The notes below the pieces were generated by a model. It was not told the DNA's origin and did no database searches. It saw nothing but the letters and a program-made list of their open reading frames with translations. Below, one piece after another: positions 2,782-12,037 of a stretch of 64,000 bases of DNA. The stretch comes from an uncultured archaeon (GTDB lineage: Archaea > Asgardarchaeota > Lokiarchaeia > Sigyniarchaeales > SOKP01): contig CAYLZE010000007.1 in assembly GCA_964388035.1 (NCBI GenBank), forward strand, positions 48,246-112,245, written 5' to 3'. The stretch's first letter is position 1, and each line of letters opens with the position of its first letter. The position numbers were made by a program, and so were the translations under genes.

Positions 2782-5151
2782 TTGGAGGAAAAATCTATGC
2801 CCAAATGTTTATTCTGTGATTCTCAAAACATTGACTTTACGTGTGAGAAATGTGGATCTTCTTTTTGTATCAATCATAATGTGTCAACGGAACAATGGCA
2901 TTGTAAACGACATGATATATATTATTCCAAAGCAACTGCTACGGAAAATGGTTTTAAGTGTAATGTTGTGGAAGAAAGTAGATGTCCGGAATGCGGAGGC
3001 TCTTTAATGTTAGATAGACTCAAATCCGGACAATATTATCTAAAATGCACCAAATGCGATTGGAATTCTTATCTTAAAACACCAGGCTTGTTTTTCCCGA
3101 GCAAAGAACAACTTGCCCGTGAAGCCCAAAGATATGGGCTGATAAGAGGACTAAAATTGTGTGGGAAGAAATTAAGAAACGTGCCAGGGAAAGAAATCTG
3201 TCCTAATTGTTTTATTACCTTATTAAAAAGGTCTCCCATTACAAAATTTTCCACTCTAGCAGATACTTTTAATATCTCGAATCCACAAATAATAAAAGTT
3301 ATCAATAAATTCATGGATGAAGAACGGATTTATGGAATAATTGACGAAGTACATCACATGTTCTACTATATTTCCTCCGAGCTCCGTGAAAAAATCTTAA
3401 CTAAGTTTCATGAAGATGGAATCATGAAAGTCTCGGATTTATCTGAAATGTTAGATACTAATAACGATGCAGCCATTCAAGTAATTTACAAATTAATTAG
3501 CCGATTTCACATTAAAGGCTCCTTCTCCTTGGATAAAAAATATTATTATACTCAAAGTTATATTTTGGAGAATATTATTAAAAAAATCAAAGAGAAAGGA
3601 CGAGTCCCGGTTCAAGAATTATCTAGCGAGTTTGGATTACCGCAAGAAAGAATTAAATCTTTTTGCGTAAATCTAATGAGGACAAAAGAAATTAATGCCT
3701 TTTTTGCGGATAAAGGAAATGAAGTTATTACCACAAATCAAATTACGAAAGAAATCCTCAATTTTGCGGACCGAGAAGGACTATTTGAACTTTCACGATT
3801 AGCCAAAGATTTAAAAATTGCGGTGGAATTAGCCCGAAAAAGTCTTCATGATATCATTAAAACCGGCAATATCAAAGGGATTTTTACCCAAAGAAGAGAA
3901 TTCATGACACTTAAACACATGGAAAAAAAAATAAAGGAAATTGCAAAGGCTTATAGAACAATGCCCTTGAGAGAATTATCTAACCGATTGGGTGTCACTG
4001 AATCCAGTATTGAAGAAAATCTAGCGTTATTAATCAGCAGAAATGAAATTGATGGATATATCGATATGGCACAAAAAGTCTTTGTTGCCTATAGTGTTTC
4101 CTCACCAGAAACGGCACGAGCTAAGCAGCTAACCGTTGAACATGAAGATGAGGGTCATATAAAGGTATTAAGAGACTATGATTTCGTGGGAGGACAAGTG
4201 AGATTTAAGGTCGTTGTAAAAAATAATAGCAACATGGCTATTAACAATGTAAAAGTCATCTTGGATGCTCCCACTAGTTATAAAATAAAAGATCCTCTCA
4301 TTAATATTCCCGTAATTGAATCGGGAAATTCACGAGGAGTAGATTTCTATATTGAGCCAAAAGAATGCGGAATGTCAAATATCTCGGGAACGGTGATCTA
4401 TAAAAATGCGAAAGGAGATCAACGAACAATTCATATTCGAAATAAAGAAGTTCAAATCAAGTGTCCATTAGTGTGTACGGATTTATCAACCATCGAAGAT
4501 TGCCAATTAGCAATACAAACCTTGCCAAATGATGCAAGAGCATTCTTAATTGCCGATTTGGATCCTCGCTTGGCGTTTAGAGCGGGAATCAGAGCCTTAA
4601 AGACTTTTGAAACGAACATGGTCACCTCCTATGAAGGAGGAAATGCACAAAAAGAATATGAGGCGGAAGCCTGGTTTTGCGCTGAAGCAAAGGTTACTGG
4701 AGGACGTATCATCACAAGAGTGTACGTATCTGCCGCAAGTGAATCATTGGAAATGAGAGTATGGTGCAATAACCCCGGACAGTTAACCGGTTTTTTAGCT
4801 AAAGCAATTGAAGTACTTTTCGAGGAAATTAACATCATTAGAAAAATTAAAAGCGAAGAAAGAGAAAAAACCTTAGATGTAATGGCAATAACTCAAAACC
4901 TTGCAGAAATCAGCGATTATTGCATGCTTCGCTGGAAAGCACAAAATATTCGCACTAAACTACATGATACTTTTGTACGACTTCAGAAAGTGATAGGCGA
5001 AAATGAAGCTATTTTCGGAAGATTTGAATTTTGGCTGACCCGTTTGAATGCTTATGAAAAGGATGATAATATCTCGGATGAAGACGCTGATAAACTTGTC
5101 AATGATGTGGAAAAATTCAAGGATCTCCTCGCACGTACTATAAAAATATAA
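2782..5151 (+). CDS. Multidomain protein: Zn fingers + five tandem winged-helix/PCI repeats + Ig-like (GAE) and platform appendage-like domains + helical tail
   Basis: N-terminal CxxC/CxxH clusters; five ~60-aa repeats ending in a canonical PCI-like LRELSNRLGVTESSIEENLALLISRNEIDGYID; beta-sandwich VRFKVVVKNNS...VDFYIEP...GTVIYKN. Start may be the ATG at 2797. Confidence 0.65.
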   Translation: MEEKSMPKCLFCDSQNIDFTCEKCGSSFCINHNVSTEQWHCKRHDIYYSKATATENGFKCNVVEESRCPECGGSLMLDRLKSGQYYLKCTKCDWNSYLKTPGLFFPSKEQLAREAQRYGLIRGLKLCGKKLRNVPGKEICPNCFITLLKRSPITKFSTLADTFNISNPQIIKVINKFMDEERIYGIIDEVHHMFYYISSELREKILTKFHEDGIMKVSDLSEMLDTNNDAAIQVIYKLISRFHIKGSFSLDKKYYYTQSYILENIIKKIKEKGRVPVQELSSEFGLPQERIKSFCVNLMRTKEINAFFADKGNEVITTNQITKEILNFADREGLFELSRLAKDLKIAVELARKSLHDIIKTGNIKGIFTQRREFMTLKHMEKKIKEIAKAYRTMPLRELSNRLGVTESSIEENLALLISRNEIDGYIDMAQKVFVAYSVSSPETARAKQLTVEHEDEGHIKVLRDYDFVGGQVRFKVVVKNNSNMAINNVKVILDAPTSYKIKDPLINIPVIESGNSRGVDFYIEPKECGMSNISGTVIYKNAKGDQRTIHIRNKEVQIKCPLVCTDLSTIEDCQLAIQTLPNDARAFLIADLDPRLAFRAGIRALKTFETNMVTSYEGGNAQKEYEAEAWFCAEAKVTGGRIITRVYVSAASESLEMRVWCNNPGQLTGFLAKAIEVLFEEINIIRKIKSEEREKTLDVMAITQNLAEISDYCMLRWKAQNIRTKLHDTFVRLQKVIGENEAIFGRFEFWLTRLNAYEKDDNISDEDADKLVNDVEKFKDLLARTIKI

Positions 5152-5517: not shown

Positions 5518-5937
5518 ATGCCCATTATCAGTATCAGCCTTAATAAAAGTCTGGAAAAATTTATTAATAAATTAGTTTGCGACGACCAGTATCAAAATAA
5601 ATCAAAAATAGTTCGAGATGCCTTGTTAAGGTTGATGTCCACCATGGACGTTTCCGATTCGATTGCGGAAGGATATGGCGAACTGGTCCCTATATCTAAA
5701 AACATCATGGGGAACATGATCATCATCGTTGAAAATGATGTTGAAATTCATAAAAAGTTAAATAAAATCGAGTTGGACTTCAAAGATCAAATTGTAAGTA
5801 AAACTCAGAATTTTTCTCCAAAAGAGAGCTTAATTTTCATAACATATGAAGGAACAGTAAAAGATTTCCAAAGAATGGTCGTGGAGATCAATAGCATAAA
5901 AGAATTAAAGAACTTTCGTTATTTAATTGTAAATTAA
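5518..5937 (+). CDS. NikR/CopG-family ribbon-helix-helix transcriptional regulator
   Basis: MPIISISL...Y.NKSKIVRDAL RHH motif followed by an ACT-like C-terminal domain. Confidence 0.8.
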   Translation: MPIISISLNKSLEKFINKLVCDDQYQNKSKIVRDALLRLMSTMDVSDSIAEGYGELVPISKNIMGNMIIIVENDVEIHKKLNKIELDFKDQIVSKTQNFSPKESLIFITYEGTVKDFQRMVVEINSIKELKNFRYLIVN

Positions 5938-10126: not shown

Positions 10127-12037
10127 TTATCTCAATAAGATCGTTTCACAATTTCGCATTGCTTTGGTCGCCTTCCTGAGCTTTTTGTGCACCATCGTGG
10201 AAAGACTAATTGTTTTACTCTCCTCTCCGTGATTAGTTAAAACTACTTTAGGGCGGGGTTGAATTCTTCTGAGGAATTGCGATATTTGGGATCTTGATGA
10301 GTGCCCACTAAATCCTTCTAATGTAAAACTATTAAGATTTAATCTTACTAATTGTGTTCTCCCCTTTTCATCCACGTATTGGAATTCCTTGAATCCTTTT
10401 TGTATTCTATTACCTAATGTTCCCGCAACTTGATAAGAAACAAAGACCAAGGAACTATTTTTATCTTCAGCCAATCCTTTTAGATATTGAACAGATGGGC
10501 CTCCAATAAGCATTCCACTGGTAGCCATGATGACGCATGGACCTCCCCCAAGAATATCTAATCGTTCTTGATGCGTATTAACGGTGGTGAATAAATCACT
10601 GAGAAAGGGATTTTTTCCTTGATGTAATATTTTTTCCCGTAAATCGCTGCTTAGAAAATCGGGATTGGCAGTGTGGATTGCGGTTGCTTCTGCAATTAAC
10701 CCGTCTAAAAACACGGGAACTTTATCGATTAATCCTTTTGAAATAAATTCTTCCAGGACAATAATTAACTCTTGTGCTCTTCCTACTGCCAAGACAGGGA
10801 TCAATATTTTTCCACCTCTATTAATGGTAGAATTAACGATTTGTCGGAATTCTTTTTCAGAATCTTGCCTGCTAGGGATTCTATCTTGGGGTCCACCATA
10901 AGTAGATTCAATTAATAGACCCTCAACTCTTGGGAATTTTACATTTGCTTTCTCTAATAGCCTTGTTTTTTGATATTTCATATCTCCCGTATATACGAAA
11001 TTAAATCCTCCTTTTCCGAAATGTAGGTGTATCATGGAAGAACCAAGAATATGACCAGAATTATGAAGAGTTAATTTAATGTCAGGAGCAATATCCGTTA
11101 CTTTTCCCCAAGATAATGGGATAGTATGAAGTACCGTGGTTTTAACATCACGTTTTGAATACGGAGGTACCACTCCTTCCTTTTCACAAATTTGCACGAA
11201 ATCTAATTGTAGCATGGTGGATAAATTACGGGTGGGTAGAGTACAATAAACTGGTCCCCGATATCCGTATTTATAGAGAAAGGGAACCATTCCACAATGG
11301 TCTAAGTGTGCATGAGATACTACCACAGCATCTAAATCTCTTACACTGAATTCGGGTAATTCAAAATGGGGAAACATTTCCGAATTATTACCCACATTTA
11401 ATCCACAATCTAAGAGTACATTACTATCTCTAGTTTGCATCAAGATGCACGATCTTCCGACTTCTCTAAAACCTCCCAAGGTGGTTAAACGAATATTCAG
11501 ATCATTAAAAAGTACGGGCCTATGAATCCTTTTTCCAATTCTTAGTAAAATATCCTTTTGAGTTTGTCTTTCATTTGCAAGCATCTTTCTTATTAAAGTG
11601 ATGGTTTTTGATTCTAAAGGCGGGGTTCGGATGGTTTTAGGTTGCCAAAACGTATTAGTTCGAATTTCCTTTAGATTAACTCCTTTTTTTCCAATCACGA
11701 TACCGGGTTTCCCGCTTTCAATTATTACCTCGCCCCTAGTATGATCAAATTCAATCGCAGATACTTCTGCCGCTTCGCCAACAAGATTTCGTATATATGC
11801 TTCTGTTTCGGCTGGATCTTTCCTTTCTTCTACGTTCCATCGAAATACAATTCGCTTTCGCATTTTTTTGGCAAGTTCTTTTAATACCGAACTATTTTCA
11901 ATGGATTCGGTATCATGATTTGAACTATATACCGCAATTTCCGGACCTTCAAATTCAATGCGATGTACATCGACATCAGGAGGAAGACTTTGAATAATTT
12001 GGTCCTTTATTTTCTGTAATGCAATATCTACTGACAT
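10127..12037 (-). CDS. fttA: aCPSF1 / FttA beta-CASP ribonuclease with KH domains (transcription termination factor)
   Basis: EFEGPE and GKPG.VIGKKG KH motifs, LGGFREVGRS, SHAHLDH, GHILGS, ESTYGG, GFSGHS, NHGE; 636 aa. Confidence 0.97.
   Translation of the reverse strand: MSVDIALQKIKDQIIQSLPPDVDVHRIEFEGPEIAVYSSNHDTESIENSSVLKELAKKMRKRIVFRWNVEERKDPAETEAYIRNLVGEAAEVSAIEFDHTRGEVIIESGKPGIVIGKKGVNLKEIRTNTFWQPKTIRTPPLESKTITLIRKMLANERQTQKDILLRIGKRIHRPVLFNDLNIRLTTLGGFREVGRSCILMQTRDSNVLLDCGLNVGNNSEMFPHFELPEFSVRDLDAVVVSHAHLDHCGMVPFLYKYGYRGPVYCTLPTRNLSTMLQLDFVQICEKEGVVPPYSKRDVKTTVLHTIPLSWGKVTDIAPDIKLTLHNSGHILGSSMIHLHFGKGGFNFVYTGDMKYQKTRLLEKANVKFPRVEGLLIESTYGGPQDRIPSRQDSEKEFRQIVNSTINRGGKILIPVLAVGRAQELIIVLEEFISKGLIDKVPVFLDGLIAEATAIHTANPDFLSSDLREKILHQGKNPFLSDLFTTVNTHQERLDILGGGPCVIMATSGMLIGGPSVQYLKGLAEDKNSSLVFVSYQVAGTLGNRIQKGFKEFQYVDEKGRTQLVRLNLNSFTLEGFSGHSSRSQISQFLRRIQPRPKVVLTNHGEESKTISLSTMVHKKLRKATKAMRNCETILLR

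What the first reader, a model, noticed from the sequence alone, without database searches (positions are those of the whole stretch)
2782..5151. UFL1/DDRGK1-like winged-helix array fused to Zn fingers and a coat-adaptor-like appendage
Seen: five tandem ~60-aa WH/PCI repeats. The repeat 1 junction IYGIIDEVHHMFYYISSE resembles DDRGK1 (TGVIDDRGKFIYITPEE, recalled) and the repeat 3 junction DKGNEVITTNQITKEI resembles UFL1 (DGKEYITPAQISKEM, recalled). After the repeats come a beta-sandwich, an alpha/beta domain and a helical tail, an order like the GAE-platform appendages of adaptins/COP and BBS2/7/9. Known: UFL1 and DDRGK1 form a composite WH scaffold (UFM1 E3 ligase) that clamps the large ribosomal subunit. 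Inference: one archaeal polypeptide joining a UFM1-E3/PCI-type scaffold to a coat-type appendage, possibly ancestral to these eukaryotic modules.
Basis: partly seen in the sequence, partly recalled or inferred. Interest (0 to 1): 0.75.

Follow-up and report, generated by a model that had tools for sequence, protein, structure and literature searches.

The report
Known Lokiarchaeal UFL1-adaptin-Vps28 scaffold protein
This is a real, strongly conserved Lokiarchaeal gene for a 784-residue scaffold that joins zinc fingers, five winged helices matching the human UFM1-ligase backbone (DDRGK1 plus UFL1, here in one unbroken chain), a vesicle-coat 'appendage' and an ESCRT Vps28 tail; the architecture is already published and its function is untested.

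Summary
ORF 2782..5151 (probable start ATG 2797, 784 aa) encodes three N-terminal Zn sites, five in-register ~60-aa winged helices, an Ig-like sandwich, an alpha/beta platform and a four-helix tail.

The WH array matches the engineered human DDRGK1-UFL1 fusion 8b9x (profile E 1.5e-16; Z 15.8, rmsd 3.8 A over 239 residues). The sandwich plus platform matches adaptin and COPI appendages.

[quoted passage not shown] 2020/21; Makarova et al. 2024). Picchianti et al. 2023 already placed the origin of UFL1 and DDRGK1 in Asgard archaea. This scan has reached the same verdict on other genomes.

- The DDRGK1/UFL1 boundary falls in the helix-turn-helix turn of an intact WH2, so the archaeal chain looks like the unsplit form.
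- The UFC1-binding helix is missing. No UFM1, UFC1 or UFSP, and no CDK5RAP3 above cut-off, was found with Pfam models.
- The appendage is the most conserved part.

It is most likely a non-catalytic adaptor, not a UFM1 ligase.

The parts
2797..5151 (+). Whole gene, 784 codons plus stop. The ORF as listed starts at TTG 2782.
   Evidence: Full-length homologues of 66-84% identity. dN 0.10 with dS saturated.
2797..2931 (+). Zn finger 1 (residues 1-45). Cross-brace C-x2-C-x8-C-x2-C-x4-C-x2-H-x8-C-x2-H, AN1/HIT-like.
   Evidence: Ligands C4, C7, C16, C19, C24, H27 and C36 are nearly invariant. Only a weak profile hit to the Cuz1 AN1 finger 5ij4 (E 0.18). No Pfam zf-AN1 hit.
2959..3072 (+). Zn ribbon 2 (residues 55-92; C63, C66, C84, C87).
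   Evidence: Nearly invariant Cys. Weak Pfam zf_Rg / Zn_ribbon_Top1 hits. Two beta-hairpins in the model.
3148..3210 (+). Third Cys cluster (C122, C135, C138; fourth ligand not assigned) in a basic linker.
   Evidence: Nearly invariant Cys. Net charge +6.
3211..3384 (+). WH1 (residues 139-196), the counterpart of DDRGK1/UFBP1 WH1'. Carries G-I-I-D-E in place of G-V-I-D-D-R-G-K.
3385..3570 (+). WH2 (residues 197-258), intact here. Its first half matches the DDRGK1 C-end (pWH') and its second half matches UFL1 27-58 (pWH).
   Evidence: DDRGK1 217-297 aligns to profile 138-219 and UFL1 27-252 to profile 222-439; the 8b9x fusion aligns across the joint in one alignment. The turn has constant length in all 29 family rows.
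3571..3759 (+). WH3 (residues 259-321), the counterpart of UFL1 WH1.
3760..3945 (+). WH4 (residues 322-383), the counterpart of UFL1 WH2.
3946..4092 (+). WH5 (residues 384-432), PCI-type; the counterpart of UFL1 WH3 and the best PCI match.
   Evidence: Pfam PCI best stretch 375-431. CSN4 PCI 1ufm E 4.7e-4. 70% mean identity across the family.
4093..4155 (+). Flexible, poorly conserved linker (residues 433-453).
   Evidence: pLDDT below 50. 29% mean identity.
4156..4464 (+). Ig-like beta-sandwich (residues 454-556), the appendage 'ear' subdomain.
   Evidence: Model pLDDT above 90. On its own it is a generic Ig fold: Z 10-13.7 to many proteins, including GAE 3mnm at 10.4.
4465..4839 (+). Alpha/beta platform subdomain (residues 557-681).
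   Evidence: AP-4 beta4 appendage 2mj7: Z 13.0, rmsd 2.5 A, 117 residues. Two-subdomain alignments to beta2, alpha and gamma-COP appendages. Most conserved domain, 73%.
4864..5148 (+). Four-helix bundle (residues 690-784), Vps28 C-terminal-domain-like.
   Evidence: Pfam VPS28 25.4 bits against a cut-off of 24.5, profile 87-179; 24 of 31 family rows hit it. Yeast Vps28 CTD 2j9u: Z 12.7, rmsd 2.1 A, 93 of 94 residues.

Best explanation
The gene encodes a soluble, non-enzymatic multidomain scaffold of Lokiarchaeia (Promethearchaeia), a member of asCOG cog.003822.

Shown:
- Three Zn sites are followed by a rigid rod of five winged helices.
- The rod is homologous to, and collinear with, the human UFM1-ligase backbone in the order DDRGK1 WH1', composite WH, UFL1 WH1-3, but in a single chain.
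- A flexible linker follows, then a complete adaptin/COPI-type appendage (Ig sandwich plus platform) and a Vps28-C-type four-helix bundle.

Inferred mechanism: the protein is an adaptor.
- The appendage, which is the most constrained part, would bind short motifs of partner proteins.
- The Vps28-C bundle would couple the protein to the ESCRT-II/III machinery that the genome encodes elsewhere.
- The WH rod and Zn fingers would hold a large partner or cargo.

It does not act as a UFM1 E3 ligase, because the elements that make UFL1/DDRGK1 a ligase are missing. The eukaryotic pair DDRGK1 + UFL1 is best read as a split descendant of such a single-chain rod.
For: Identity of the family:
- Pfam PCI, DDRGK, E3_UFM1_ligase and VPS28 all score above cut-off, and in 24-29 of 31 family rows.
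- The family profile against PDB gives 8b9x E 1.5e-16 in one alignment across the fusion joint. DDRGK1 ends at profile 219 and UFL1 begins at 222.
- Structure: 8b9x Z 15.8, rmsd 3.8 A over 239 of 255 residues. UFL1 on the 60S (9gy4_E) gives Z 11.0 for residues 223-432.
- Appendage: Foldseek 1e42 4e-10, and 1w80, 1pzd and 9qpq. Platform 2mj7 Z 13.0 and Vps28 CTD 2j9u Z 12.7.
- Published annotation of the same architecture and the ESCRT-adaptor proposal.

Not a UFM1 ligase:
- There is no room for the UFL1 alpha1 helix in any family row. That helix is essential for UFC1 binding.
- The residue equivalent to DDRGK Arg265 is Val185 here.
- No Pfam Ufm1 match (E <= 1), no UFC1 match over the cut-off (best E 0.7) and no UFSP match (E <= 0.1) in the 96.7%-complete genome; CDK5RAP3 gave only a sub-cut-off hit (E 0.04, 13.9 bits).
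- Pfam Ufm1 matched 0 of 201 Asgard genomes.

A possible partner exists: a locus with Vps22-like, Vps25-like and Vps4 genes lies on contig C82.

Constraint: the appendage is 70-73% identical across the family and 52-67% in the far members, against 16-40% for WH1-3. The appendage also has the lowest dN.
Against: No binding or functional data exist for any member.

Gene neighbours give no functional clue. The order HisA/F - DsbD_2 - gene - NikR-like - PpiC holds only within the family of genomes, is lost at 43-45% identity, and the NikR-like gene is convergent in one genus.

The Vps28-C match is a four-helix bundle, where Z values near 13 can arise from common packing (note), and the Pfam score is only just above cut-off.

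ESCRT-II is nearly universal in the phylum (182 of 201 genomes), so co-occurrence says nothing.

The Ig sandwich alone is not specific to adaptins.

Structure-based Ufm1 homologues are reported in nine Asgard clades (Koestlbacher et al. 2026). The Pfam model would not see them, so a Ubl partner is not excluded.
Confidence: 0.55

Rival explanations
1. Ribosome-docking factor. Like the UFL1-DDRGK1 rod of the eukaryotic UREL complex, the five-WH rod lies on the large ribosomal subunit. The appendage and Vps28-C tail then bring trafficking or ESCRT factors to ribosomes. This would be a function of the scaffold that predates UFM1.
For: In human UREL, every WH domain except UFBP1 WH1' touches the 60S (Makhlouf et al. 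2024). The archaeal WH2-WH5 are collinear with exactly those domains. Picchianti et al. 2023 proposed a UFM1-independent ancestral role. The protein is single-copy and highly conserved, as expected for a partner of a conserved machine. WH3, WH4 and the Zn3 linker are basic.
Against: The human contacts run largely through parts that are absent here: the UFL1 C-terminal domain and PTC loop, the UFBP1 long helix, and CDK5RAP3. WH1-3 are the least conserved part of the protein. There are no ribosomal or translation genes next to it. No binding data exist.
Confidence: 0.2
2. True scaffold-type E3 ligase for a cryptic Ufm1-like or ubiquitin-like modifier, using an E2 other than UFC1.
For: Structure-based Ufm1 homologues are reported in nine Asgard clades. 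The genome has three UQ_con E2 genes. G180 and D183 of the DDRGK-type wing are nearly invariant. Liu et al. predicted 'ubiquitin-dependent membrane remodeling'.
Against: There is no UFL1 alpha1 helix or hinge. The Arg of the DDRGK motif is not conserved. No UFC1 over the cut-off, no UFSP, only a sub-cut-off CDK5RAP3 hit (E 0.04, 13.9 bits), and no Pfam-detectable Ufm1. There is no Ubl or E2 gene beside it.
Confidence: 0.08
3. Multi-wHTH DNA-binding transcription regulator, as some automatic annotations suggest (Lrp, ArsR, DtxR family).
For: Weak hits to many HTH regulator families. Source names such as 'DNA-binding Lrp family transcriptional regulator'. A NikR-like gene lies next door.
Against: The regulator hits are all far below cut-off, whereas PCI, UFL1 and DDRGK (protein scaffolds) are above it. 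The rigid rod superposes on 8b9x. Fusion to an appendage and a Vps28-C bundle has no precedent in regulators. The neighbour is convergent in one genus.
Confidence: 0.03

Closest known systems
[quoted passage not shown] 2020/2021; Makarova et al. 2024 mBio, supplementary table; example in Lokiarchaeum GC14_75)
   Same: Same domain order and about the same length, and the same downstream NikR-family neighbour. Homologues are 66-84% identical over the full length.
   Different: Nothing of substance; this is one more member.
Human DDRGK1 (UFBP1)-UFL1 winged-helix scaffold of the UFM1 ribosome E3 ligase (PDB 8b9x, 8c0d, 8ohd, 8qfc, 9gy4)
   Same: Tandem PCI-like WH rod with collinear domains (WH1', composite WH, WH1-3). 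Rigid-body superposition: Z 15.8, rmsd 3.8 A over 239 residues.
   Different: Single chain with an intact WH2 where the human proteins are split. No UFL1 alpha1 helix or hinge. No UFL1 WH4-5, C-terminal domain or PTC loop. No DDRGK1 membrane anchor, long helix or UFIM. Arg of the DDRGK motif is not conserved. No UFM1/UFC1/UFSP found, and no CDK5RAP3 above cut-off. About 19% identity.
Appendage domains of AP-2 alpha/beta2, AP-4 beta4, COPI gamma/beta and BBS2/7/9
   Same: Ig-like sandwich followed by an alpha/beta platform, in the same order. Foldseek 4e-10 to 8e-8 across both subdomains; platform Z 13.0. As in BBS9, helices follow the platform.
   Different: About 10% identity. The relative orientation of the subdomains differs (rmsd 8-10 A for the pair). 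It hangs on a WH rod, not an alpha-solenoid trunk. Motif-binding residues were not tested.
Vps28 C-terminal domain of ESCRT-I (PDB 2j9u, 2g3k; Pfam PF03997)
   Same: Four-helix bundle. Z 12.7, rmsd 2.1 A over 93 of 94 residues. Pfam hit above cut-off over profile 87-179.
   Different: No Vps28 N-terminal 'steadiness box' part. The sequence hit is marginal (25.4 bits against 24.5). Binding to ESCRT-II is not shown.

Membership tests
asCOG cog.003822 (Asgard UFL1-adaptin-Vps28 fusion) | Domain order: Zn-binding, then UFL1-type WH array, then adaptin-C, then Vps28-C, in one protein of about 790 aa | tested here: met
   Annotation text.
asCOG cog.003822 (Asgard UFL1-adaptin-Vps28 fusion) | Full-length sequence similarity to Lokiarchaeal members | tested here: met
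   66-84% identity over 100% of the length to proteins named from Promethearchaeota/Lokiarchaeota MAGs. 36 of 40 genomes of the window's own family carry it.
UFL1/DDRGK1 UFM1 E3 ligase scaffold | Tandem PCI-like WH rod collinear with DDRGK1 WH1', composite WH and UFL1 WH1-3 | tested here: met
   Profile E 1.5e-16 to 8b9x. Z 15.8. Pfam DDRGK and E3_UFM1_ligase above cut-off.
UFL1/DDRGK1 UFM1 E3 ligase scaffold | UFL1 N-terminal alpha1 helix and hinge that bind and activate UFC1 | tested here: not met
   The WH2 H2-H3 turn has a constant short length in all 29 rows, with no inserted helix.
UFL1/DDRGK1 UFM1 E3 ligase scaffold | Arg of the DDRGK motif (human R265) in the WH1' wing | tested here: not met
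   The equivalent residue is Val185 here and is variable in the family (mostly K; R in two rows; N, Q, P, A, E, I or V in others). G180 and D183 are conserved.
UFL1/DDRGK1 UFM1 E3 ligase scaffold | UFL1 WH4-5, C-terminal domain and PTC loop; DDRGK1 membrane anchor, long helix and UFIM | tested here: not met
   Alignments stop at UFL1 residue 252 and start at DDRGK1 residue 217. The flanks here are Zn fingers and an appendage.
UFL1/DDRGK1 UFM1 E3 ligase scaffold | Cognate UFM1, UFC1, UFSP and CDK5RAP3 in the same genome | tested here: not met
   No match over cut-off in the 96.7%-complete genome. Pfam Ufm1 matched 0 of 201 Asgard genomes. Caveat: structure-only Ufm1 homologues cannot be seen with this model.
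Adaptin/COPI appendage domain | Ig-like sandwich subdomain directly followed by an alpha/beta platform subdomain | tested here: met
   Foldseek 1e42_A 4e-10 over 238 columns; 1w80, 1pzd, 9qpq. 2mj7 Z 13.0 for the platform; 3h1z Z 12.7 and 1w80 Z 12.4 for both subdomains.
Adaptin/COPI appendage domain | Attached by a hinge to an alpha-solenoid trunk of a coat adaptor subunit | tested here: not met
   Upstream is a WH rod and a 21-residue linker.
Adaptin/COPI appendage domain | Conserved aromatic peptide-motif pockets on the platform and sandwich | not tested
   No residue-level superposition was available with these tools.
Vps28 (ESCRT-I) C-terminal domain | Four-helix bundle matching Pfam VPS28 positions about 87-179 and the solved CTD | tested here: met
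   25.4 bits against a cut-off of 24.5; 27 bits; 24 of 31 rows. 2j9u Z 12.7, 93 of 94 residues. Marginal in sequence, and helical bundles give high Z easily.
Vps28 (ESCRT-I) C-terminal domain | Binding to ESCRT-II (Vps36 NZF) or Vps20 | not testable with these tools
   ESCRT-II genes exist in the genome. No complex prediction tool was available.
AN1-type zinc finger | C-x2-C-x(9-12)-C-x(1-2)-C-x4-C-x2-H-x5-H-x-C pattern and a Pfam zf-AN1 match | tested here: inconclusive
   The spacing is similar but the last two ligands differ (C36, H39). There is no Pfam hit at E <= 1. The Cuz1 AN1 finger scores only E 0.18.

The most novel reading that the evidence does not exclude
The single-chain WH rod is the living, unsplit form of the ancestor of both DDRGK1 and UFL1. 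In Lokiarchaea it docks on the large ribosomal subunit and links ribosomes to ESCRT or coat-like machinery through its appendage and Vps28-C tail. That would be a forerunner, predating UFM1, of the eukaryotic system that releases ribosomes from the ER. Eukaryotes then split the gene in the helix-turn-helix turn of WH2 and grew the UFC1-binding helix at the new N-terminus.
Probability: 0.12. Interest if true: 0.8.

Novelty: already known. Interest (0 to 1): 0.3.

Why it matters
The protein joins relatives of three eukaryotic signature systems in one chain: the UFM1-ligase scaffold, the coat-adaptor appendage and ESCRT-I Vps28. It is therefore a good handle on what these parts did before eukaryotes existed.

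The boundary between DDRGK1 and UFL1 falls inside an intact archaeal winged helix. This gives a simple account of why the two human proteins must complement each other to fold. It also makes the question 'what did this scaffold do before UFM1?' testable with a soluble archaeal protein.

As a discovery, however, it adds little. The architecture and the Asgard origin of UFL1 and DDRGK1 are in print, and this scan has already reported the family, including the 'unsplit' reading, from other genomes.

Tried and rejected
Synteny was therefore read from the genome search and genome-fetch loci instead.
- The search for related loci with the alignment failed because no stretch was conserved enough. The single-protein scan worked.
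- Gene neighbourhood: the HisA/F - DsbD_2 - gene - NikR-like - PpiC order holds only among close kin. It is lost in the 43-45% identical members, whose neighbours are a GNAT, a histidine kinase, PurH and an acyl-CoA dehydrogenase. The NikR-like gene is convergent in one genus. There is no functional lead.
- Co-occurrence with ESCRT-II: EAP30 is in 182 of 201 genomes, so the test is uninformative.
- Paralogues in the window's own genome: domain HMMs found only the gene itself at E <= 1e-3, apart from weak single-WH hits on three other ORFs (E 5e-5 to 3e-4) and one weak Ig hit on contig C32.
- Sel_Asgard link: NCBIfam NF045535 hits residues 588-781 at 6.9e-8. The profile-to-sequence comparison with the genome's true member was not significant (E 0.27), and Pfam finds nothing in that protein.
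- Longin reading of the alpha/beta domain (Makarova's general text): the best match is the appendage platform (Z 13.0). The KICSTOR-GATOR1 chain 9o5a_D, over the same stretch, scored 9.8; no match described as a longin domain was among the rows shown.
- Generic Ig or CARDB reading of the C-terminal half: true for the sandwich alone, but the platform and the two-subdomain alignments argue against it.
- The first full-length model left residues 555-672 below pLDDT 50. This was solved with a 75-row alignment.
- RNA runs: none was listed.
- Pfam zf-AN1 gave no hit.
Full report
**The gene.** A single ORF runs 2782..5151 on the + strand. The first ATG, at 2797, has GGAGG 9 nt upstream. All homologues align from residue 3 of the 784-aa product that starts there, so 2797 is taken as the start. 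The window lies on contig C7 of a 5.47-Mb assembly that is 96.7% complete. The closest named relatives are Promethearchaeota/Promethearchaeia (Lokiarchaeia) MAGs.

**Observation.** Pfam places four families above their gathering cut-offs:
- PCI: 5.5e-22, three stretches.
- DDRGK: 8.1e-15, residues 137-217 on profile positions 102-181 of 188.
- E3_UFM1_ligase: 3e-14, residues 224-431 on profile positions 24-234 of 272.
- VPS28: 1.4e-5, 25.4 bits against 24.5, residues 684-773 on profile positions 87-179.

A weak GAE_BBS1 hit (0.024) falls on residues 465-507. The same four families are found in 24-29 of 31 family rows.

Profiles built from each putative repeat find all five repeats in register, at 139-196, 197-258, 259-321, 322-383 and 384-441. 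The full-length AlphaFold model shows five H-E-H-H-E-E winged helices at pLDDT about 80-87.

Fourteen Cys/His ligands in the first 138 residues are nearly invariant. The first site has an AN1/HIT-like cross-brace spacing, but only a weak profile hit to the Cuz1 AN1 finger (E 0.18) and no Pfam zf-AN1 hit.

Against an 84%-identical homologue, dN is 0.10 with dS saturated. Where a ratio can be computed it is below 0.1. The gene is real and constrained.

**The winged-helix rod.** A profile of 31 family members was searched against the PDB. Three results matter:
- The engineered human DDRGK1-UFL1 fusion 8b9x scores E 1.5e-16 in one alignment. Profile 140-351 aligns to chain 14-231 and runs straight across the fusion joint.
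- DDRGK1 alone (residues 217-297 of 314) covers profile 138-219.
- UFL1 alone (residues 27-252 of 794) covers profile 222-439.

The two human proteins therefore abut at residues 218-221. This is the turn between helix 2 (212-219) and helix 3 (223-237) of an intact WH2.

Structurally, the model superposes on 8b9x_B with Z 15.8 and rmsd 3.8 A over 239 of 255 residues (model 130-373). It superposes on ribosome-bound UFL1 (9gy4_E) with Z 11.0 for residues 223-432. Foldseek gives 2.9e-12 with TM 0.67.

The archaeal domains thus correspond as follows, in the naming of Makhlouf et al. 2024:

| Archaeal domain | Human counterpart |
|---|---|
| WH1 | UFBP1 WH1' |
| WH2 | composite pWH'-pWH |
| WH3 | UFL1 WH1 |
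| WH4 | UFL1 WH2 |
| WH5 | UFL1 WH3 |

Its UFL1 motif belongs at the WH2/WH3 junction (245-260), one repeat earlier than stated.

**Not a UFM1 ligase.**
- Banerjee et al. 2023 and Makhlouf et al. [quoted passage not shown] 8b9x is the inactive deltaN construct, DDRGK1 207-305 joined to UFL1 27-200.
- In all 29 family rows the WH2 turn has the same short length, so no such helix can be present.
- The Arg of the DDRGK motif, which contacts UFC1 Asp50, corresponds to Val185 here and varies in the family. G180 and D183 are conserved.
- The alignments do not extend into UFL1 WH4-5 or its C-terminal domain, nor into the DDRGK1 anchor, long helix or UFIM.
- In the window's genome, Pfam models found no Ufm1 match at E <= 1, no UFC1 match over the cut-off (best E 0.7) and no Peptidase_C78 match at E <= 0.1; CDK5RAP3 gave only a sub-cut-off hit (E 0.04, 13.9 bits). 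Ufm1 matched none of 201 Asgard genomes.
- Three ordinary UQ_con E2 genes are present.
- Caveat: Koestlbacher et al. 2026 report structure-based Ufm1 homologues in nine Asgard clades. A sequence model would miss these.

**The C-terminal half.** A second model of residues 440-784, built on a 75-row alignment of diverse module-bearing proteins, reached mean pLDDT 93.4.

Foldseek then ranks two-subdomain appendages first:

| Match | E-value | Note |
|---|---|---|
| beta2-adaptin 1e42_A | 4e-10 | 238 columns |
| COPI 9qpq_H | 1.1e-9 | |
| alpha-adaptin 1w80_A | 2.1e-8 | |
| gamma-COP 1pzd | 2.6e-8 | |
| BBS9 6vbu_9 | 8.1e-8 | |

VIA-align resolves the parts:
- The sandwich (451-557) is a generic Ig fold, with Z 10-13.7 to many unrelated proteins and GAE domains at about 10.
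- The alpha/beta domain (557-681) matches the AP-4 beta4 appendage platform 2mj7 with Z 13.0 and rmsd 2.5 A over 117 residues.
- The tail (690-782) matches the yeast Vps28 C-terminal domain 2j9u with Z 12.7 and rmsd 2.1 A over 93 of 94 residues.

The alpha/beta domain fits a platform; no match described as a longin domain was among the rows shown, and the KICSTOR-GATOR1 chain over the same stretch scored only 9.8.

**Distribution and constraint.**
- Among 201 genomes sampled from the phylum, the full-length form occurs in 36 of 40 genomes of the window's own family and in 3 of 3 of the sister family of the same order, at 43-45% identity. It was not found full-length elsewhere.
- Pfam E3_UFM1_ligase hits over cut-off occur in 45 of 201 genomes. 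Nearly all are in these two families. A few are short four-WH proteins in other families. One of these aligns with the rod at hhalign probability 95% but lacks one WH.
- The unit of PCI-type WH, sandwich and platform, with or without Vps28-C, is widespread. Of the 585 clusters at 50% identity that match the query at E <= 0.001, most of the 150 listed match only this part. Their proteins range from about 240 to 4,911 aa and carry varied N-terminal parts.
- Variants are labelled Helarchaeota and Asgardarchaeia by their sources.
- Within the family, the appendage and WH5 are the most conserved parts: 70-73% mean identity, and 45-67% in the far members. WH1-3 are at 51-53% mean identity and 16-40% in the far members. 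The appendage also has the lowest dN.
- The gene is more conserved (68-70%) than its neighbours (45-65%).

**Context.** The neighbours are HisA/F, a DsbD_2 membrane protein, a NikR-like protein and a PpiC parvulin. This order holds only among close kin, and the NikR-like gene is convergent in one genus. In the 43-45% identical members the neighbours are unrelated housekeeping genes. No function can be read from context. The genome has an ESCRT locus elsewhere, on contig C82, with Vps22-like, Vps25-like and Vps4 genes. ESCRT-II is in 182 of 201 genomes of the phylum, so co-occurrence is uninformative.

**What is known.**
- Liu et al. [quoted passage not shown] - The supplement of Makarova et al. 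[quoted passage not shown] It is followed by a NikR gene, as in this window. The same paper proposes that such Vps28-C/appendage proteins are ESCRT-0-like adaptors that bind ESCRT-II.
- Picchianti et al. [quoted passage not shown]
- In four literature searches I did not find the explicit statement that the DDRGK1/UFL1 boundary lies inside an intact archaeal WH. This scan has reported that reading on other genomes.

**Verdict.** The best-supported mechanism is a non-catalytic adaptor. Its appendage and Vps28-C tail would recruit partners, probably ESCRT-II/III. Its WH rod is the unsplit homologue of the DDRGK1-UFL1 backbone. All functional steps are inferred. A ribosome-docking role is the most interesting rival.

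Noticed in passing
window 4558-5139 (residues 588-781), and G000:C6:6991-7572 (L003 1408..2100): NCBIfam NF045535 'Sel_Asgard, putative selenocysteine system protein' (195 positions) matches the platform plus Vps28-C part over its whole length at 6.9e-8, below cut-off. The genome's true member (209 bits) lies convergent to the uL15/uL30/uS5 genes. The profile-to-sequence comparison was not significant, and Pfam sees nothing in that protein. The relationship is unexplained.
   Followed up: partly
window 5518-5937: A NikR_C-like small protein is the conserved downstream neighbour in the window's family of genomes and in Lokiarchaeum GC14_75. It is convergent in one genus and absent from the locus in the 43-45% identical members, so it is probably not functionally linked.
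   Followed up: yes
proteins P0143, P0144, P0155, P0166, P0265: The unit of WH, sandwich and platform also ends very long proteins (1,258 to 4,911 aa). Their N-terminal parts carry ABC_transp_aux/DUF4350, Big_13, FG-GAP and other Ig-like domains. These architectures were not examined further.
   Followed up: partly
G000:C82, L033 8952..11957: An ESCRT locus (EAP30/Vps22-like, ESCRT-II/Vps25-like, Vps4 with a MIT domain) lies at a contig end, next to NIP7-like PUA and RsmB-type methyltransferase genes. In the window's own genome, the only Pfam-detectable Vps28 C-terminal part is in the protein studied here.
   Followed up: partly
G000:C38:34206-34655 and G000:C119:14170-14502: Two family matches (a UQ_con E2, and a weak match to the Vps28 N-terminal part) each contain one in-frame TAG. 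Whether this reflects two adjacent ORFs, a broken gene or read-through was not examined.
   Followed up: no
L057 778..1536 (-) and L058 690..1490 (+): Other Asgard families carry small soluble proteins (252-266 aa) made of four winged helices. These are homologous to the rod (hhalign 95%) and weakly to 8b9x (E 0.0034). They have no Zn fingers and no appendage.
   Followed up: partly
window 10127-12037 (-): An ordinary aCPSF1/FttA transcription-termination nuclease (KH, metallo-beta-lactamase, beta-CASP). It is 71-73% identical and syntenic in one related genus.
   Followed up: no
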